Source: Escherichia coli (GTDB lineage Bacteria > Pseudomonadota > Gammaproteobacteria > Enterobacterales > Enterobacteriaceae). From it: a DNA stretch of 64,000 nt. Position 1 is the stretch's first letter. Every line of letters starts with the position of its first letter. Position numbers and translations under genes: made by a program. The notes below the pieces were generated by a model, which was given only the letters and a program-made list of their open reading frames with translations, had not been told where the DNA came from and searched no databases. Below are positions 21,420 through 27,437 of this stretch, piece after piece. The stretch lies in the NCBI RefSeq assembly GCF_030013205.1, contig NZ_CP122648.1; one strand, 5' to 3'.

Positions 21420-22946
21420 ATGAGAAACTTTCCTGTTCCGTACTCGAATGAGCTGATTTATAGCACTATTGCACGGGCAGGCGTTTATCAAGGGATTGTT
21501 AGTCCTAAGCAGCTGTTGGATGAGGTGTATGGCAACCGCAAGGTGGTCGCTACCTTAGGTCTGCCCTCGCATTTAGGTGTGATAGCAAGACATCTACATC
21601 AAACAGGACGTTACGCTGTTCAGCAGCTTATTTATGAGCATACCTTATTCCCTTTATATGCTCCGTTTGTAGGCAAGGAGCGCCGAGACGAAGCTATTCG
21701 GTTAATGGAGTACCAAGCGCAAGGTGCGGTGCATTTAATGCTAGGAGTCGCTGCTTCTAGAGTTAAGAGCGATAACCGCTTTAGATACTGCCCTGATTGC
21801 GTTGCTCTTCAGCTAAATAGGTATGGGGAAGCCTTTTGGCAACGAGATTGGTATTTGCCCGCTTTGCCATATTGTCCAAAACACGGTGCTTTAGTCTTCT
21901 TTGATAGAGCTGTAGATGATCACCGACATCAATTTTGGGCTTTGGGTCATACTGAGCTGCTTTCAGACTACCCCAAAGACTCCCTATCTCAATTAACAGC
22001 ACTAGCTGCTTATATAGCCCCTCTGTTAGATGCTCCACGAGCGCAAGAGCTTTCCCCAAGCCTTGAGCAGTGGACGCTGTTTTATCAGCGCTTAGCGCAG
22101 GATCTAGGGCTAACCAAAAGCAAGCACATTCGTCATGACTTGGTGGCGGAGAGAGTGAGGCAGACTTTTAGTGATGAGGCACTAGAGAAACTGGATTTAA
22201 AGTTGGCAGAGAACAAGGACACGTGTTGGCTGAAAAGTATATTCCGTAAGCATAGAAAAGCCTTTAGTTATTTACAGCATAGTATTGTGTGGCAAGCCTT
22301 ATTGCCAAAACTAACGGTTATAGAAGCGCTACAGCAGGCAAGTGCTCTTACTGAGCACTCTATAACGACAAGACCTGTTAGCCAGTCTGTGCAACCTAAC
22401 TCTGAAGATTTATCTGTTAAGCATAAAGACTGGCAGCAACTAGTGCATAAATACCAAGGAATTAAGGCGGCAAGACAGTCTTTAGAGGGTGGGGTGCTAT
22501 ACGCTTGGCTTTACCGACATGACAGGGATTGGCTAGTTCACTGGAATCAACAGCATCAACAAGAGCGTCTGGCACCCGCCCCTAGAGTTGATTGGAACCA
22601 AAGAGATCGAATTGCTGTACGACAACTATTAAGAATCATAAAGCGTCTAGATAGTAGCCTTGATCACCCAAGAGCGACATCGAGCTGGCTGTTAAAGCAA
22701 ACTCCTAACGGAACCTCTCTTGCAAAAAATCTACAGAAACTGCCTTTGGTAGCGCTTTGCTTAAAGCGTTACTCAGAGAGTGTGGAAGATTATCAAATTA
22801 GACGGATTAGCCAAGCTTTTATTAAGCTTAAACAGGAAGATGTTGAGCTTAGGCGCTGGCGATTATTAAGAAGTGCAACGTTATCTAAAGAGCGGATAAC
22901 TGAGGAAGCACAAAGATTCTTGGAAATGGTTTATGGGGAAGAGTGA
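21420..22946 (+). CDS. tnsD: Tn7 target selector TnsD (attTn7/glmS binding)
   Basis: 508-aa ORF with N-terminal CCHC-type zinc-finger residues; operon position. Confidence 0.95.
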   Translation: MRNFPVPYSNELIYSTIARAGVYQGIVSPKQLLDEVYGNRKVVATLGLPSHLGVIARHLHQTGRYAVQQLIYEHTLFPLYAPFVGKERRDEAIRLMEYQAQGAVHLMLGVAASRVKSDNRFRYCPDCVALQLNRYGEAFWQRDWYLPALPYCPKHGALVFFDRAVDDHRHQFWALGHTELLSDYPKDSLSQLTALAAYIAPLLDAPRAQELSPSLEQWTLFYQRLAQDLGLTKSKHIRHDLVAERVRQTFSDEALEKLDLKLAENKDTCWLKSIFRKHRKAFSYLQHSIVWQALLPKLTVIEALQQASALTEHSITTRPVSQSVQPNSEDLSVKHKDWQQLVHKYQGIKAARQSLEGGVLYAWLYRHDRDWLVHWNQQHQQERLAPAPRVDWNQRDRIAVRQLLRIIKRLDSSLDHPRATSSWLLKQTPNGTSLAKNLQKLPLVALCLKRYSESVEDYQIRRISQAFIKLKQEDVELRRWRLLRSATLSKERITEEAQRFLEMVYGEE

Positions 22947-24563
22947 GTGGTTAGGCTAGCTACATTTAATGACAATGTGCAGGTTGTACATATTGGTCAT
23001 TTATTCCGTAACTCGGGTCATAAGGAGTGGCGTATTTTTGTTTGGTTTAATCCAATGCAAGAACGGAAATGGACTCGATTTACTCATTTGCCTTTATTAA
23101 GTCGAGCTAAGGTGGTTAACAGTACAACAAAGCAAATAAATAAGGCGGATCGTGTGATTGAGTTTGAAGCATCGGATCTTCAACGAGCCAAAATAATCGA
23201 TTTTCCTAATCTCTCGTCCTTTGCTTCCGTACGCAACAAGGATGGAGCGCAGAGTTCATTTATTTACGAAGCTGAAACACCATATAGCAAGACTCGTTAT
23301 CACATCCCACAGTTAGAGCTAGCTCGGTCATTATTTTTAATTAACTCCTATTTCTGTCGAAGCTGTTTGAGCAGTACCGCTTTACAGCAAGAGTTCGACG
23401 TTCAGTATGAGGTTGAGCGAGATCATTTAGAGATAAGGATCTTACCCAGTTCATCGTTTCCTAAAGGGGCGTTAGAGCAGTCGGCCGTAGTGCAGCTTTT
23501 GGTTTGGTTGTTTTCGGATCAAGATGTTATGGATTCGTATGAAAGTATTTTTAGGCACTATCAACAAAATAGAGAAATTAAGAACGGCGTTGAAAGCTGG
23601 TGCTTTAGCTTTGACCCTCCGCCCATGCAGGGTTGGAAATTACATGTAAAAGGACGTTCTTCTAACGAGGATAAGGATTATTTAGTTGAGGAAATAGTAG
23701 GTTTAGAAATCAACGCTATGCTTCCTAGCACAACAGCTATTAGCCATGCCTCTTTTCAGGAAAAGGAGGCAGGTGATGGTAGTACGCAGCACATAGCGGT
23801 TTCAACAGAGTCAGTTGTTGATGATGAGCATCTACAGTTGGACGATGAGGAAACAGCCAATATAGACACAGACACACGAGTCATAGAGGCTGAGCCGACA
23901 TGGATAAGTTTTAGTAGACCTAGTCGAATTGAAAAATCTCGCAGGGCAAGAAAAAGTAGCCAAACTATTTTAGAAAAAGAAGAAGCAACAACAAGTGAAA
24001 ATAGTAATTTGGTTAGTACTGATGAGCCACACTTAGGTGGTGTCCTAGCAGCGGCAGATGTGGGTGGGAAGCAGGATGCAACCAATTACAACTCTATTTT
24101 TGCTAATCGATTTGCTGCTTTTGATGAGCTACTTTCAATTCTAAAAACTAAATTTGCATGTCGGGTGCTTTTTGAAGAAACCTTGGTTTTGCCAAAAGTT
24201 GGGCGTAGCCGATTACATCTGTGTAAAGATGGCTCACCAAGAGTGATTAAAGCCGTTGGGGTGCAACGTAATGGCAGTGAATTTGTATTGCTAGAGGTGG
24301 ATGCATCGGATGGGGTGAAAATGCTTTCTACCAAAGTGTTGAGTGGCGTTGATAGCGAAACATGGCGGAATGATTTTGAAAAGATACGGCGTGGAGTGGT
24401 GAAGAGCTCATTGAATTGGCCAAATAGTTTGTTTGATCAATTATATGGACAAGACGGGCATAGAGGGGTGAATCATCCAAAGGGGTTGGGGGAGCTGCAA
24501 GTATCGAGAGAGGATATGGAAGGGTGGGCTGAGAGAGTGGTTAGAGAGCAATTTACGCATTAA
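22947..24563 (+). CDS. tnsE: Tn7 target selector TnsE
   Basis: 538-aa ORF with GTG start directly after the tnsD stop. Confidence 0.94.
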   Translation: MVRLATFNDNVQVVHIGHLFRNSGHKEWRIFVWFNPMQERKWTRFTHLPLLSRAKVVNSTTKQINKADRVIEFEASDLQRAKIIDFPNLSSFASVRNKDGAQSSFIYEAETPYSKTRYHIPQLELARSLFLINSYFCRSCLSSTALQQEFDVQYEVERDHLEIRILPSSSFPKGALEQSAVVQLLVWLFSDQDVMDSYESIFRHYQQNREIKNGVESWCFSFDPPPMQGWKLHVKGRSSNEDKDYLVEEIVGLEINAMLPSTTAISHASFQEKEAGDGSTQHIAVSTESVVDDEHLQLDDEETANIDTDTRVIEAEPTWISFSRPSRIEKSRRARKSSQTILEKEEATTSENSNLVSTDEPHLGGVLAAADVGGKQDATNYNSIFANRFAAFDELLSILKTKFACRVLFEETLVLPKVGRSRLHLCKDGSPRVIKAVGVQRNGSEFVLLEVDASDGVKMLSTKVLSGVDSETWRNDFEKIRRGVVKSSLNWPNSLFDQLYGQDGHRGVNHPKGLGELQVSREDMEGWAERVVREQFTH

Positions 24564-24618: not shown

Positions 24619-24777
24619 TTAAAGGTGGCCATTTAAACGGTCACCAAATTCGATCATAAAACGGTTCATGGCCGGCTTCCAGTTGCGGATCGGCATCGTC
24701 CATTTCTTGGTCGCCGCCTGGATAGCCAGGTACACCACCTTCATCGCTGATTCGTCCGTAGGGAACACCTTGAGTTC
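24619..24777 (-). pseudogene. 3' remnant of an IS256/Mutator-family transposase gene
   Basis: Minus-strand frame reads ...LKVFPTDESAMKVVYLAIQAATKKWTMPIRNWKPAMNRFMIEFGDRL..., which resembles the conserved C-terminal region of IS256-family transposases; there is no N-terminal part or start codon. Confidence 0.55.
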
Positions 24778-24793
24778 ATATTAATGGAATTTT

Positions 24794-25171
24794 CTACAAA
24801 TAGCCTCCGTGGTTTTGAGGGGGGATTACAGACGATCCATAGTAGTAATCCAATGAGTTCTTGAGCGCGGCGACATGTTTGGACGCCTTGGCAAAAATTA
24901 GAGCCTGCTTGAAGTGCAGGCGAGCACGTGCTTGGACGATTGATCCATTCGCGGTCAAAAACTCAATCTTGGATGACAGCGTGTCAGGAAATCCAATATC
25001 GAAGTCCCGCCCCGTGTCAAAGTAGGGCATTTCATGATCAAAGGACGAAGCTTCCCAGGCCACTTCCCTAATATTCCAGCCGCTAGAAACAAGATTTCGT
25101 ACGACTTCATCAACTTTTTTGCTTTCCAACTTGTCACAAAGTGCATAGGCAAGAGCTTTGGCGGCAGACAC
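24794..25171 (-). CDS. hypothetical protein in the Tn7 variable region
   Basis: 125-aa ORF co-oriented with the cassette array; no recognisable motif. Confidence 0.45.
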   Translation of the reverse strand: MSAAKALAYALCDKLESKKVDEVVRNLVSSGWNIREVAWEASSFDHEMPYFDTGRDFDIGFPDTLSSKIEFLTANGSIVQARARLHFKQALIFAKASKHVAALKNSLDYYYGSSVIPPQNHGGYL

Positions 25172-25224: not shown

Positions 25225-25548
25225 TTAGTCCCAAAGCATCTCCGGTAGATCCGGAGGCTCCATACTGAAGGCATGGCATCTTGGGCATTGATATTTGAAA
25301 CTTCTCTCTAGATAGCAGGGATTTCTTGGCCTTGCCTCATGCTGATAGCTTGTAAATATCACACGATCCTTAGCCCCACAAAGTGAGCATACTCCGTAGC
25401 TTTCATTTATAGAAATCGTCGTTAGATTGTCGCAGCATGTGCACGTTCCGACTATTTGCTCAGGAAGCATCGCCATACCTTGGCCTAGGTAAAGAAGATC
25501 AGACTCGTAGCCACATCGGTGGCAACTGAGCTTGTACGCAATGCCCAT
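25225..25548 (-). CDS. hypothetical Cys-rich (zinc-ribbon-like) protein in the Tn7 variable region
   Basis: 107-aa ORF with paired CxxC-type motifs (CHRCG..., CTCCD, CSLCG, CPRCH). Confidence 0.45.
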   Translation of the reverse strand: MGIAYKLSCHRCGYESDLLYLGQGMAMLPEQIVGTCTCCDNLTTISINESYGVCSLCGAKDRVIFTSYQHEARPRNPCYLERSFKYQCPRCHAFSMEPPDLPEMLWD

Positions 25549-25580: not shown

Positions 25581-25952
25581 CTATTCATCCATCCATTCGG
25601 CATCAATGTATGCCACTAAGCCGACCAGCTGACCGTTTGGACTGAAGTATGTTGCCTGCACCCCACTTGACATCTCATCAATACCACCGCACTGCGCTAG
25701 GCGCCGGTCCCACTTGCCCACAGAAGCGTCAGGATCGGCTGAGTTCCCCAAGACCCTTGTGAGCCATGCCTCCTTTAACTCAACCTCTCGAATGATTGCG
25801 TCGGCCAGCTCCTCCGCGTTATCTAGTTCGACATAGTCTGGAATTCGGACGTACGTTCTGAACACAGCTGGATACTTACTTGGGCGATTGTCATACATGA
25901 CATCAACAATGTACCCGTTTGTGTAACCGTCTCTTGGAGGTTCGTATGACAC
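25581..25952 (-). CDS. hypothetical protein in the Tn7 variable region
   Basis: 123-aa ORF with GTG start, preceded by a GTTAGGC core-site-like sequence. Confidence 0.45.
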   Translation of the reverse strand: MSYEPPRDGYTNGYIVDVMYDNRPSKYPAVFRTYVRIPDYVELDNAEELADAIIREVELKEAWLTRVLGNSADPDASVGKWDRRLAQCGGIDEMSSGVQATYFSPNGQLVGLVAYIDAEWMDE

Positions 25953-26012
25953 TAGTGGTTCCCCTCAGCTTGCGACTAGATGTTGAGGCCTAACATTTTA
26001 TTAGAGAGCAGG

Positions 26013-26510
26013 CTAGTTGCTTAGATACATGATCTTCAGGCCGTTATCTGTCAGGGCAAGCGAAAATTGGCCATTTATGACGACCAATGCCCCGCAGAAG
26101 CTCCCATCTTTGCCGCCATAGACGCCGCGCCCCCCTTTTGGGGTGTAGAACATCCTTTTGCCAGATGTGGAAAAGAAGTTCGTTGTCCCATTGTTGGCAA
26201 TGACGTAGTAGCCGGCGAAAGTGCGAGACCCATTTGCGCTATATATAAGCCTACGATTTCCGTTGCGACTATTGTCGTAATTGGATGAACTATTATCGTA
26301 GTTGCTCTCAGAGTTGTCGTAATTTGATGGACTATTGTCGTAATTGCTTATGGAGTTGTCGTAGTTGCTTGGAGAAATGTCGTAGTTGGATGGGGAGTAG
26401 TCATAGGGAAGACGAGCTTCATCCACTAAAACAATTGGCAGGTCAGCAAGTGCCTGCCCCGATGCCATCGCAAGTACGAGGCTTAGAACCACCTTCAACA
26501 GATCGCGCAT
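26013..26510 (-). CDS. hypothetical secreted protein with tandem heptad repeats (S-x-S-N-Y-D-N)
   Basis: 165-aa ORF with an N-terminal signal-peptide-like segment (MRDLLKVVLSLVLAMASGQALA) and about seven SPSNYDN-type repeats, encoded by 21-bp tandem DNA repeats near 26280-26410. Confidence 0.55.
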   Translation of the reverse strand: MRDLLKVVLSLVLAMASGQALADLPIVLVDEARLPYDYSPSNYDISPSNYDNSISNYDNSPSNYDNSESNYDNSSSNYDNSRNGNRRLIYSANGSRTFAGYYVIANNGTTNFFSTSGKRMFYTPKGGRGVYGGKDGSFCGALVVINGQFSLALTDNGLKIMYLSN

Positions 26511-26523
26511 AGTCTTCCCCAGC

Positions 26524-26585
26524 TCTCTAACGCTTGAGTTAAGCCGCGCCGCGAAGCGGCGTCGGCTTGAACGAATTGTTAGACA
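26524..26585 (-). other. attC (59-be) recombination site of the aadA1 cassette
   Basis: Imperfect palindrome ttaagccgcgccgcgaagcggcgtcggcttgaacgaattgttagac directly after the aadA1 stop, typical of the aadA1 attC. Confidence 0.8.
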
Positions 26586-27374
26586 TTATTTGCCGACTAC
26601 CTTGGTGATCTCGCCTTTCACGTAGTGAACAAATTCTTCCAACTGATCTGCGCGCGAGGCCAAGCGATCTTCTTGTCCAAGATAAGCCTGCCTAGCTTCA
26701 AGTATGACGGGCTGATACTGGGCCGGCAGGCGCTCCATTGCCCAGTCGGCAGCGACATCCTTCGGCGCGATTTTGCCGGTTACTGCGCTGTACCAAATGC
26801 GGGACAACGTAAGCACTACATTTCGCTCATCGCCAGCCCAGTCGGGCGGCGAGTTCCATAGCGTTAAGGTTTCATTTAGCGCCTCAAATAGATCCTGTTC
26901 AGGAACCGGATCAAAGAGTTCCTCCGCCGCTGGACCTACCAAGGCAACGCTATGTTCTCTTGCTTTTGTCAGCAAGATAGCCAGATCAATGTCGATCGTG
27001 GCTGGCTCGAAGATACCTGCAAGAATGTCATTGCGCTGCCATTCTCCAAATTGCAGTTCGCGCTTAGCTGGATAACGCCACGGAATGATGTCGTCGTGCA
27101 CAACAATGGTGACTTCTACAGCGCGGAGAATCTCGCTCTCTCCAGGGGAAGCCGAAGTTTCCAAAAGGTCGTTGATCAAAGCTCGCCGCGTTGTTTCATC
27201 AAGCCTTACGGTCACCGTAACCAGCAAATCAATATCACTGTGTGGCTTCAGGCCGCCATCCACTGCGGAGCCGTACAAATGTACGGCCAGCAACGTCGGT
27301 TCGAGATGGCGCTCGATGACGCCAACTACCTCTGATAGTTGAGTCGATACTTCGGCGATCACCGCTTCCCTCAT
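26586..27374 (-). CDS. aadA1: aminoglycoside (3'')(9) adenylyltransferase (streptomycin/spectinomycin resistance)
   Basis: 262-aa ORF (MREAVIAEVSTQLSEVVGVIERHLEPTLLAVHLYGSAVDGGLKPHSDIDLLVTV...) recognised as AadA1. Confidence 0.96.
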   Translation of the reverse strand: MREAVIAEVSTQLSEVVGVIERHLEPTLLAVHLYGSAVDGGLKPHSDIDLLVTVTVRLDETTRRALINDLLETSASPGESEILRAVEVTIVVHDDIIPWRYPAKRELQFGEWQRNDILAGIFEPATIDIDLAILLTKAREHSVALVGPAAEELFDPVPEQDLFEALNETLTLWNSPPDWAGDERNVVLTLSRIWYSAVTGKIAPKDVAADWAMERLPAQYQPVILEARQAYLGQEDRLASRADQLEEFVHYVKGEITKVVGK

Positions 27375-27377
27375 GAT

Positions 27378-27437
27378 GTTTAACGCCTGAATTAAGCCGC
27401 GCCGCGAAGCGGTGTCGGCTTGAATGAATTGTTAGGC
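27378..27437 (-). other. attC recombination site of the sat2 cassette
   Basis: About 60-bp imperfect palindrome bounded by GCCTAAC (inverse core, overlapping the sat2 stop) and GTTAAAC (core) on the coding strand. Confidence 0.75.

What the first reader, a model, noticed from the sequence alone, without database searches (positions are those of the whole stretch)
26013..26510. Tn7-borne secreted protein built from tandem heptad repeats encoded by 21-bp DNA repeats
The ORF directly downstream of the aadA1 attC encodes a signal-peptide-like N-terminus followed by about seven S-(P/I/E/S)-S-N-Y-D-(N/I) heptads (YDYSPSNYDISPSNYDNSISNYDNSPSNYDNSESNYDNSSSNYDNS) and a Gly/Tyr-rich C-terminal domain. 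The DNA shows a matching 21-bp periodicity (ttgtcgtaatt.ga... units near 26280-26410). Repeat number could vary by slippage, and the function is unknown.
Basis: seen in the sequence. Interest (0 to 1): 0.4.

Follow-up and report, generated by a model that had tools for sequence, protein, structure and literature searches.

The report
Tn7 orfX/ybeA: exported seven-heptad protein
The ORF is the long-catalogued but uncharacterised orfX/ybeA cassette of the Tn7 class 2 integron: a real gene for an exported protein with a rigidly conserved array of seven 7-residue repeats, still without a known function.

Summary
Window 26013-26510 (-) is a 165-aa ORF with a Sec-type signal peptide, seven in-phase heptads (Y-D-N-S-x-S-N) and a beta-rich C-terminal domain. 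The DNA shows a degenerate 21-bp period.

It is orfX/ybeA (UniProt O32551), the last "pseudo-cassette" of the Tn7 class 2 integron. It is known, but every paper read gives its function as unknown.

- **Translated.** At least 226 homologues exist. The repeats are the most constrained region (pN/pS 0.13).
- **No known relative.** There is no Pfam, NCBIfam, PHROG or PADLOC match. A confident AlphaFold model (pLDDT 87) matches no PDB or viral fold.
- **Fixed array.** Seven units with unit-specific residues (P,P,I/V,P,E,A/S) persist across the homologues examined, down to about 40% identity. The DNA period is therefore a by-product of protein repeats, not a contingency tract.
- **Rare deletions.** 103 of 106 E. 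coli records have the intact array. In-frame deletions between short in-phase repeats do occur. The Shigella sonnei allele is an exact 63-bp loss between 17-bp repeats.
- **Likely source.** A 94%-identical cassette with an intact Xanthomonadales-type attC lies in Xanthomonas melonis.

My best guess at function, a non-enzymatic periplasmic binding or protective protein, is inference only.

The parts
26013..26510 (-). orfX/ybeA coding sequence (165 codons plus TAG stop at 26013-26015)
   Evidence: ORF list. 100% identical to WP_001444089.1 in R721 and to UniProt O32551 'ORFX'. Named orfX/ybeA in PMC5559693 and PMC12901181.
26445..26510 (-). Signal peptide, residues 1-22 (MRDLLKVVLSLVLAMASGQALA, predicted cleavage ALA|DL)
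   Evidence: Hydrophobic core and AxA rule conserved in 83 family members: -1 Ala in 80 of 83, +1 Asp in 83 of 83. No Cys at +1, so not a lipoprotein.
26259..26405 (-). Array of seven heptads, residues 36-84: YDYSPSN YDISPSN YDNSISN YDNSPSN YDNSESN YDNSSSN YDNSRNG
   Evidence: period 21. pN/pS 0.13. Unit-specific conservation of the variable position. AlphaFold pLDDT of at least 90 for residues 51-90, with 3-10 turns at YDY (36-38) and at YDN in units 5-7 (64-66, 71-73, 78-80).
26016..26258 (-). C-terminal beta-rich domain, residues 85-165 (seven strands plus a C-terminal helix; conserved GYYV, NFFSxxGKRxFY, FCG)
   Evidence: AlphaFold model. Profile A2. Local PD40-like motif FSxxGKRxxY.
26330..26346 (-). 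First copy of the 17-bp direct repeat CAATTACGACAATAGTC
   Evidence: Longest exact in-phase repeat, spacing 63 bp. It bounds the 63-bp deletion of the S. sonnei allele.
26267..26283 (-). Second copy of the 17-bp direct repeat CAATTACGACAATAGTC
26130..26139 (-). Homopolymer run A4-G6 in codons for PKGGR
   Evidence: Read from the sequence. The reading frame of allele P0121 (144 aa, 118 contigs) and of P0071, P0026 and P0017 changes here.
26514..26520 (-). Shine-Dalgarno-like GGGGAAG, 3 nt upstream of the ATG
   Evidence: Read from the sequence. Conserved as GGGAAGA or GGGGAAG in X. melonis and in the metagenome cassettes.
26525..26584 (-). aadA1 attC (60 bp); its R' box GTTAGAG marks the 5' boundary of the ybeA cassette
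   Evidence: Hairpin with folding energy -27.8 kcal/mol and R''/R' pairing. The same boundary is seen in L028 and L029.
25987..26012 (-). Truncated 3' recombination site: CCTGCTCTCTAA (start of R'' of the lost attC) fused to TAAAATGTTAGGCC (attI2-derived)
   Evidence: A second copy of TAATAAAATGTT lies at the attI2 end, 28095-28107. Intact cassettes read CCTGCTCTCTAACAATTCATTC...GCGTTAG at this point. Agrees with the 'delta-attI2-11' of PMC12901181.

Best explanation
**Identity.** The ORF is orfX/ybeA, the terminal pseudo-cassette of the Tn7 class 2 integron. Here the array is (delta-estX)-sat2-aadA1-ybeA, in an E. coli chromosome.

**Shown:**
- It is a genuine protein-coding gene of a small, horizontally scattered family of exported proteins in Proteobacteria.
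- Its layout is a signal peptide, then a short beta-strand (DLPIVLV), then LPY followed by seven heptads with consensus aromatic-x-N-S-x-S-N/K, then an ~80-residue beta-rich domain.
- The heptad array is the most strongly conserved part of the protein. Seven units is the modal count (89 of 115 listed homologues), and each unit has its own conserved residue.
- The 21-bp DNA period is therefore a degenerate shadow of selection on the protein, not a slippage-prone tract.
- Rare in-frame deletions occur between 9-17-bp in-phase microhomologies. One of them is common in Shigella sonnei.
- The cassette has a near-identical copy with an intact Xanthomonadales-type attC in Xanthomonas melonis. In Tn7 that attC was cut inside R'' and replaced by attI2-derived sequence.

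**Inferred:**
- After Sec export and cleavage at ALA|DL, the 143-residue mature protein folds as one unit. In this fold the 49-residue Asn/Ser-stitched ladder of turns displays a row of tyrosines and is held in place by the two ends of the beta-sheet domain.
- It acts without partner proteins as a non-enzymatic periplasmic binding or protective protein, possibly for a periodic ligand such as a glycan strand. It lacks a conserved catalytic-type residue set and has no conserved gene neighbours.
- In Tn7 hosts it is probably a dispensable passenger that is slowly decaying through deletions, frameshifts and IS insertions.
For: - **Identity:** 100% match to R721 Tn7 and to UniProt O32551 'ORFX'. 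Papers name it orfX/ybeA, with function unknown.
- **Real gene:** 226 homologues at E<=1e-3. There are 108 cluster representatives for the C-terminal domain alone.
- **Selection by region (pN/pS):** 0.13 in the repeats, 0.39 in the C-terminal domain, 0.67 in the signal peptide, with synonymous sites saturated.
- **Export:** AxA and hydrophobic-core rules are conserved across 83 members.
- **Structured array:** AlphaFold pLDDT 87.4 and pTM 0.80, with pLDDT of at least 90 over residues 51-90.
- **Unit-specific residues:** P, P, I/V, P, E, A/S at the variable position.
- **Fixed count:** seven in-phase aromatic positions in 89 of 115 listed homologues, and in distant relatives whose motif has changed to SKFSNS, SKYSNS or NYDNKAS.
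- **Not a contingency tract:** units are 8-18 of 21 bases identical. 103 of 106 E. coli records have the intact array.
- **Deletions:** the S. sonnei allele P0011 (272 contigs) is an exact 63-bp loss between the 17-bp repeats, with no other difference. Other alleles were also seen.
- **Deletion disturbs the array:** AlphaFold on the 144-aa allele drops below pLDDT 50 at the junction.
- **Stand-alone function:** neighbours differ in every context.
- **Origin:** intact attC in L028 (X. melonis) and in L029 and L030, with the breakpoint in R''. aadA1a and sat2 attCs are assigned to Xanthomonadales in PMC8352920.
Against: - No experiment or expression data were available. Export, cleavage site, fold and function are all predictions.
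- I could not inspect the model coordinates. That the repeats pack on the sheet is inferred from pLDDT and from unit-specific conservation.
- The five AlphaFold models range from pLDDT 74 to 87.
- AlphaFold is a weak judge of deletion effects, and the alignment columns for the deleted units were dropped.
- The binding-protein idea has no direct support. A conserved Cys (FCG) and conserved Arg residues leave some chemistry possible.
- The deletion alleles come from draft assemblies, mostly Shigella. I did not verify them in closed genomes.
Confidence: 0.7

Rival explanations
1. Length-tuning contingency locus. On this reading the 21-bp repeats exist to let the heptad number change by slipped-strand mispairing. 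That would adjust the reach or antigenicity of a surface or periplasmic protein, as in the Helicobacter pylori FucT heptad 'ruler'.
For: - Alleles retaining 3 to 6 of the 7 units exist in Shigella and other Enterobacterales.
- The only PDB sequence hit is the FucT DDLRVNY heptad stretch, 5zoi, E=7e-4.
Against: - The units are only 38-86% identical at the DNA level, and the longest shared run is 17 bp.
- Seven units with unit-specific residues are conserved across the family.
- 103 of 106 E. coli records are invariant.
- Only losses were seen in Tn7 copies. One 8-unit protein was seen among environmental homologues.
- The commonest loss removes the nearly invariant Glu68.
Confidence: 0.07
2. 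Orphan periplasmic immunity or inhibitor protein. On this reading the protein neutralises a periplasm-acting toxin, for example a type VI effector, a bacteriocin or a lysozyme-like enzyme. The Tyr/Asn ladder would serve as a substrate mimic.
For: - It is a small, exported, beta-rich, stand-alone protein carried on integron cassettes and genomic islands.
- In X. melonis the next gene encodes an Imm11-family immunity protein, followed by a 1350-aa protein.
- In Psychrobacter it sits next to a type I restriction gene and a resolvase.
Against: - No toxin gene is consistently linked to it.
- There is no PADLOC or Pfam immunity-family match.
- In some genomes it lies inside housekeeping operons, between prpC and acnD or after ferritin genes.
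Confidence: 0.15
3. Flexible, low-complexity or amyloid-like spacer. On this reading the Asn/Ser/Tyr-rich heptads are intrinsically disordered or prion-like, and simply tether or aggregate the C-terminal domain.
For: The mature protein is rich in these residues: 20 Asn, 21 Ser and 14 Tyr out of 143. DSSP finds no strands or long helices in the array.
Against: - pLDDT is at least 90 across residues 51-90.
- The array has the lowest pN/pS in the protein.
- Each unit has its own conserved residue.
- The length is fixed at 49 residues even where the motif has degenerated, as in P0191.
Confidence: 0.08
4. Metal-binding array for calcium or iron. On this reading the repeated Asp, Asn, Ser and Tyr side chains coordinate cations.
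For: There is one Asp and one Tyr per heptad. One homologue directly follows two ferritin genes.
Against: The Asp is replaced by Ala, Ser, Asn, Lys or Gln in relatives that keep the array: NYANS in L023, NYSNS in L027, KFSNS in P0144. The residues conserved across these relatives are Asn and Ser, with an aromatic residue usually at the Tyr position.
Confidence: 0.07
5. Chance ORF, or untranslated sequence, in a pseudo-cassette.
For: - The cassette lacks a proper attC and lies far from the Pc promoters.
- Frameshift, deletion and IS100-disrupted copies circulate.
Against: - 226 homologues keep the frame, the signal peptide and the repeats, with pN/pS of 0.13-0.39.
- Opposite-strand ORFs are short and unconserved.
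- There is no Rfam match on either strand.
Confidence: 0.03

Closest known systems
orfX / ybeA pseudo-cassette of the Tn7 class 2 integron (In2-7); UniProt O32551; RefSeq WP_001444089.1
   Same: Identical sequence and position: after the aadA1 attC and before ybfA, ybfB, ybgA and tnsE. The 3' site is the attI2-derived remnant described in PMC12901181.
   Different: Nothing differs. This is that gene. The papers read treat it only as an ORF of unknown function. None of those found mentions the signal peptide, the heptads or relatives.
Helicobacter pylori alpha-1,3-fucosyltransferase FucT C-terminal heptads (DDLRVNY; PDB 5zoi)
   Same: Tandem 7-residue repeats containing N-Y-D, encoded by 21-bp DNA repeats. 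It is the only PDB sequence match (E=7e-4).
   Different: From my own knowledge, FucT heptads carry Leu and Val at coiled-coil positions and vary in number between strains. Here there are no hydrophobic a/d positions, the prediction is non-helical, the protein is exported, and the count is fixed at seven. The match is a compositional resemblance, not homology.
Integron gene cassettes of unknown function with Xanthomonadales-type 60-bp attC sites
   Same: Relatives in X. melonis, Pseudomonas, Methylotenera and Thiopseudomonas are single-ORF cassettes bounded by attC sites. Their attCs are 84-95% identical to the aadA1 attC.
   Different: The Tn7 copy has lost its attC. Other relatives are not in cassettes at all. 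They lie in the prp operon, after ferritin genes, or in a restriction-modification island.
PD40 (WD40-like, TolB-type) beta-propeller blade motif, Pfam PF07676
   Same: The hairpin NFFSxxGKRMFYxPKKG matches the FSPDGKRxAY signature of PD40 blades. The C-terminal domain profile hits multi-blade PD40 proteins at this motif. One family member gives PF07676 at E=0.017. The weak top Foldseek hits are mostly propellers.

Membership tests
Tn7 class 2 integron orfX/ybeA | Sequence identity to the catalogued ORF, located between the aadA1 attC and ybfA within Tn7 | tested here: met
   100% over 721 bp to R721. The same neighbours are present. The exact protein is UniProt O32551 'ORFX'.
Integron gene cassette | 5' boundary at the R' (GTTRRRY) box of the preceding attC, with a promoterless single ORF | tested here: met
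   GTTAGAG of the aadA1 attC lies 14 bp before the ATG. The only promoter-like match between the attC and the ATG region lies inside the ORF.
Integron gene cassette | Its own attC (imperfect hairpin with R''/L''/L'/R') at the 3' end | tested here: not met
   Only CTCTAA of R'' remains, fused to attI2-like TAAAATGTTAGGCC. Homologues L002, L003, L020, L021, L028 and L029 do have an intact attC.
Sec (signal peptidase I) signal peptide | Positive n-region, hydrophobic h-region, small residues at -3 and -1 | tested here: met
   Arg2 and Lys6 in the n-region, a 10-residue hydrophobic core with mean hydropathy 2.87, and ALA|D. The pattern holds in 66-80 of 83 members. This was rule-based only; no SignalP run and no experiment.
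Bacterial lipoprotein | Lipobox with invariant Cys at +1 | tested here: not met
   Residue +1 is Asp in 83 of 83 members.
Coiled-coil heptad repeat | Hydrophobic residues at positions a and d; helical | tested here: not met
   The unit is Y-D-N-S-x-S-N with one aromatic residue and no second hydrophobic position. The model shows no helix of four or more residues in the array.
Contingency (phase-variable) tandem-repeat locus | Near-identical DNA units and frequent gain and loss of units among close relatives | tested here: not met
   Units are 8-18 of 21 bases identical. 103 of 106 E. coli records are intact. Only deletions were seen among Tn7 copies.
PD40 beta-propeller repeat (PF07676) | Score above the Pfam gathering threshold, or structural superposition on a propeller blade | tested here: not met
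   No Pfam hit for the query. One of 85 members hits at E=0.017. Foldseek TM-scores are below 0.2. Only a local motif is shared.
Known anti-phage defence proteins (PADLOC) | Match to a PADLOC model | tested here: not met
   No families at E<=1. The gene is not mentioned in the paper on mobile-integron defence cassettes.

The most novel reading that the evidence does not exclude
The family represents a previously undescribed fold. In this reading, exactly seven Asn/Ser-stitched heptad turns form a rigid tyrosine ladder clamped onto a two-blade, PD40-like beta-sheet. This module binds a periodic envelope polymer (peptidoglycan, LPS or capsule) or blocks a periplasm-acting toxin or phage step. 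That would give Tn7 and many environmental integrons a selectable trait that is not antibiotic resistance.
Probability: 0.15. Interest if true: 0.6.

Novelty: already known. Interest (0 to 1): 0.3.

Why it matters
orfX/ybeA travels with one of the most widespread resistance transposons. It is in 107 of 5426 complete E. coli genomes and on at least 1000 contigs. Yet it has been carried in annotations for decades as an ORF of unknown function.

Four results turn an ignored ORF into a defined target for structural and phenotypic work:
- it is a conserved, exported protein;
- its repeat architecture is fixed;
- it has no detectable relative among solved structures;
- a near-identical, intact cassette is present in a Xanthomonas chromosome.

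The result also adds a third Tn7 cassette, after aadA1 and sat2, to those with a Xanthomonadales-type source.

The practical by-product is small. The 63-bp deletion and the other alleles could serve as lineage markers for Tn7 in Shigella.

Nothing here changes how Tn7 or integrons are understood.

Tried and rejected
**Family and fold searches that found nothing**
- Pfam, NCBIfam, PHROGs and PADLOC scans of ybeA found nothing usable. For ybfA, ybfB and ybgA they gave only sub-threshold hits.
- A Pfam scan of all 85 family members gave only scattered hits at E>0.01.
- The PDB profile search returned only the FucT heptads and a chance tail-spike stretch.
- Foldseek against viral models gave a best E of 0.043.
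- The afdb50 library was not available.
- Rfam found nothing on either strand.

**Method steps that had to be changed**
- My first, strict attC regular expression found nothing, even where an attC was visible by eye. A looser search with a hairpin test worked.

**Ideas considered and dropped**
- Guilt by association: neighbours differ in every locus. The two 313-aa upstream proteins in L003 and L014 are unrelated.
- The 123-aa ORF after the L029 cassette has the same length as ybfA but shows no similarity to it.
- E. coli hit H69, which looked like a copy-number variant, is an IS100 insertion.
- The 144-aa protein P0121 is a frameshift allele, not a repeat variant. The 151-aa protein P0123 is a shorter gene call beginning at Met15. 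Neither has lost heptads.
- Calcium binding was dropped because the Asp is not conserved.
- Coiled coil was dropped because there are no a/d hydrophobic positions and no helix.
- N-glycosylation sequons and mimicry of the RNA polymerase II CTD were considered by eye. Both were dropped for lack of a consistent motif.

**Literature**
- Searches for the protein accessions, the heptad sequence, or orfX together with heptad, tandem repeat or signal peptide found nothing relevant.
Full report
**1. What is in the sequence**

The minus strand of 26013-26510 holds a 165-codon ORF.

Counting from Tyr36 of an LPY motif, there are seven units of seven residues: YDYSPSN, YDISPSN, YDNSISN, YDNSPSN, YDNSESN, YDNSSSN and YDNSRNG. 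They are encoded at 26259-26405.

Tandem Repeats Finder reports period 21, with multiples at 42 and 63, over 26267-26393. Self-identity of the DNA is 0.60 at a shift of 21, against 0.19-0.35 at neighbouring shifts.

The units are far from identical at the DNA level, at 8-18 of 21 bases. Most differences are synonymous. The DNA periodicity is real, but it reflects repeated amino acids rather than recently duplicated DNA.

**2. Identity and setting**

The genes around the ORF are as follows:

| Feature | Coordinates | Strand |
|---|---|---|
| tnsD | 21420-22946 | + |
| tnsE | 22947-24563 | + |
| ybgA | 24794-25171 | - |
| ybfB | 25225-25548 | - |
| ybfA | 25581-25952 | - |
| this ORF (ybeA) | 26013-26510 | - |
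| aadA1 | 26586-27374 | - |
| sat2 | about 27435-27956 | - |
| intI2 (usual stop at codon 179) | ORF 28388-28945; stop 28943-28945 | + |

- The 721 bp around the ORF are 100% identical to Tn7 in plasmid R721.
- The exact protein is UniProt O32551 'ORFX', found on at least 1000 contigs.
- The literature calls it orfX or ybeA, a pseudo-cassette of unknown function with an incomplete attC (PMC5559693, PMC8876359, PMC3332091, PMC8858760).
- A 2026 paper shows that its attC has been replaced by 17 bp of attI2, and that IntI1 can still excise it (PMC12901181).
- I confirm the boundaries. The 60-bp aadA1 attC lies at 26525-26584. After the stop codon, the sequence TAATAAAATGTTA (25991-26003) repeats the end of attI2 at 28095-28107.
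- The window itself is an E. coli chromosome with Tn7 next to the pst operon, 100% identical to strain ETEC4079.

**3. It is a translated gene of a real family**

A search of 5.8 billion proteins found 226 relatives. A profile of the C-terminal domain alone found 108 cluster representatives among 1.84 billion.

Across seven homologues with DNA in hand, synonymous sites are saturated. The pN/pS ratios by region are as follows:

| Region | pN/pS |
|---|---|
| Heptad repeats | 0.13 |
| Linker between signal peptide and repeats | 0.40 |
| C-terminal domain | 0.39 |
| Signal peptide | 0.67 |

The signal peptide sequence drifts but keeps its properties. Ala is at -1 in 80 of 83 members and at -3 in 56 of 83. 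Asp is at +1 in all 83, and the median length is 23. There is no lipobox.

**4. The heptad array is a fixed structural element**

- Seven in-phase aromatic positions occur in 89 of 115 listed homologues.
- The variable position of each unit is conserved unit by unit: Pro, Pro, Ile/Val, Pro, Glu, Ala/Ser. The Asn and Ser positions are invariant or nearly so.
- Distant relatives, including those at 41-49% identity, have changed the motif (SKFSNSx, SKYSNSx, NYDNKAS, NYANSx) but still have seven units. One has lost the motif yet keeps the ~49-residue length.
- The Asp is dispensable. The conserved residues are Asn and Ser, with an aromatic residue usually at the Tyr position.
- AlphaFold2 with an 85-sequence alignment gives pLDDT 87.4 and pTM 0.80.
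- In that model, pLDDT is at least 90 over residues 51-90. DSSP assigns three-residue 3-10 turns at YDY of unit 1 (36-38) and at YDN of units 5-7 (64-66, 71-73, 78-80). An N-terminal strand (24-28), seven further strands and a C-terminal helix complete the fold.

Unit-specific conservation and fixed length argue that the array is part of one folded body. It is neither a homogeneous fibre nor a floppy linker. I could not read the coordinates, so the packing itself is inferred.

**5. No known relatives**

- There is no Pfam, NCBIfam, PHROG or PADLOC family.
- The only PDB sequence hit is the DDLRVNY heptad stretch of H. pylori FucT, which is a compositional resemblance.
- One lead exists. The hairpin NFFSxxGKRMFYxPKKG matches the FSPDGKRxAY signature of PD40 (TolB-type) propeller blades.
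- Because of that motif, the domain profile picks up multi-blade PD40 proteins, and the weak Foldseek list is rich in propellers.
- The eight predicted strands could correspond to two four-stranded blades. This is a hint, not membership.

**6. Copy-number variation**

Among Tn7 copies there are in-frame deletion alleles:

| Allele | Length (aa) | Units lost | Contigs | Host |
|---|---|---|---|---|
| P0011 | 144 | 4-6 | 272 | Shigella sonnei |
| P0122 | 158 | 2 | 70 | Enterobacterales |
| P0014 | 144 | 3-5 | 28 | Shigella sonnei |
| P0018 | 137 | four (2-5) | 3 | Shigella flexneri |
| P0016 | 137 | four (3-6) | 1 | unnamed (Logan run) |
| P0007 | 155 (partial gene call, 151 from the ATG) | two (3-4) | 1 | Shigella flexneri |

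- The P0011 DNA differs from the window by exactly one 63-bp deletion. It is bounded by the longest in-phase exact repeat of the array, the 17-mer CAATTACGACAATAGTC at 26330-26346 and 26267-26283.
- No expansion was seen among Tn7 copies.
- In complete E. coli genomes, 103 of 106 records carry the intact 201-bp region at 99% identity or more. Two of the exceptions are IS100 insertions.
- A frameshift allele at the A4-G6 run (26130-26139) is also common: P0121, on 118 contigs.
- AlphaFold on the 144-aa allele keeps the C-terminal domain but falls below pLDDT 50 at the junction. This is weak evidence.

Together these look like occasional microhomology-mediated deletions and other decay in a passenger gene. 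They do not look like programmed variation.

**7. Where the cassette came from**

- Only 8 of 100,044 species-representative genomes carry a relative, scattered over Alpha-, Beta- and Gammaproteobacteria.
- Some relatives are classical cassettes. One lies in a Thiopseudomonas alkaliphila chromosomal integron with attC sites on both sides. Others are in Methylotenera and Pseudomonas.
- Other relatives are ordinary chromosomal genes in unrelated places. One lies between prpC and acnD, one follows two ferritin genes, and one sits beside a type I restriction gene.
- Xanthomonas melonis has a 94.4%-identical copy. It is the last of four or five cassettes in an array of 60-bp attC sites, with no integrase within 8 kb.
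- Two metagenome contigs have a 94.5%-identical copy.
- In these copies the stop codon is followed by CCTGCTCTCTAACAATTCATTC...GCGTTAG, a complete attC 93-95% identical to the aadA1 attC.
- The Tn7 copy is identical up to CCTGCTCTCTAA and then switches to attI2-like sequence. The break is therefore inside R''.
- Ghaly et al. (PMC8352920) had already assigned the aadA1a and sat2 attCs to Xanthomonadales. ybeA now fits the same source.
- The direction of transfer is inferred, not proven.

**8. Function**

Nothing links the gene to partners, so it most likely acts alone. The invariant residues are Asn, Tyr, Ser, Gly, Pro, Arg, Phe and Leu. There is no conserved His or acidic pair, and the Tn7 mature protein contains no His at all. 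This makes an enzyme less likely.

My best guess is a periplasmic binding or protective protein that presents a regular row of tyrosines on a polar Asn/Ser scaffold. I give that about 30%. An orphan immunity or inhibitor role is the main alternative.

Metal binding, coiled coil, a disordered spacer and a contingency locus are each disfavoured by specific results (see the rival explanations).

**9. Verdict**

The observation and the interpretation are right. The ORF is the already catalogued orfX/ybeA, and its function remains unknown.

What this analysis adds:
- proof that it is a conserved, exported protein;
- the fixed seven-unit architecture;
- the absence of any known fold;
- natural deletion alleles, with their mechanism;
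- a near-identical cassette with an intact attC.

Interest is modest.

Noticed in passing
window 27984-28095: The integron lacks dfrA1. A 112-bp segment replaces the 559-bp dfrA1 cassette of R721. Together with the attI2 end, it matches the start of the estX cassette at 99%, so the array is (delta-estX)-sat2-aadA1-ybeA.
   Followed up: partly
window 30000-42000: The window is an E. coli chromosome, 100% identical to porcine ETEC strain ETEC4079 (NZ_CP122643.1). Tn7 lies beside the pstS and lpf region. Similarity to R721 ends at about 30317, which should be the Tn7 left end.
   Followed up: partly
window 28388-28945 (+): intI2 carries the usual premature stop at codon 179, so the integrase is inactive.
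   Followed up: no
window 25225-25548 (-): ybfB is a 107-aa Cys-rich ORF with a sub-threshold zinc-ribbon match (PF18073, E=1.8e-4). It is not annotated in the RefSeq R721 record.
   Followed up: no
window 24619-24768 (-): A 49-aa ORF between tnsE and ybgA corresponds to what RefSeq annotates in another strain as an incomplete IS256-family transposase.
   Followed up: no
window 29574-29813 (-): A 79-aa BrxA-family ORF lies between intI2 and the presumed Tn7 left end. The same ORF is present in R721 and in S. sonnei contigs.
   Followed up: no
L019 (E. coli GPEC1210) and GPEC1035: An IS100 element is inserted in the heptad array of ybeA in two chicken E. coli strains.
   Followed up: partly
L017 (S. 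sonnei, Logan SRR13349058): A Tn7 variant in which the 144-aa ybeA allele directly follows sat2. The aadA1 cassette is absent.
   Followed up: no
L006-L009: A 162-aa relative (P0104) sits between prpC and acnD of the methylcitrate operon in at least four different metagenome contigs. No attC was detected there.
   Followed up: partly
P0144, P0147, P0148, P0153, P0164, P0191 and P0155, P0159: A subfamily carries an extra C-terminal domain of about 90 residues with no Pfam match, in two types. One type has the motif HWI..N...G..I.LEDGS.W.I. The other has the motif DGDTIFKLTNGQIWQQ.EY.Y.YHY.
   Followed up: no
L026 (Formosimonas limnophila): The relative in this genome is a pseudogene, broken by stop codons after the fifth heptad.
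   Followed up: no
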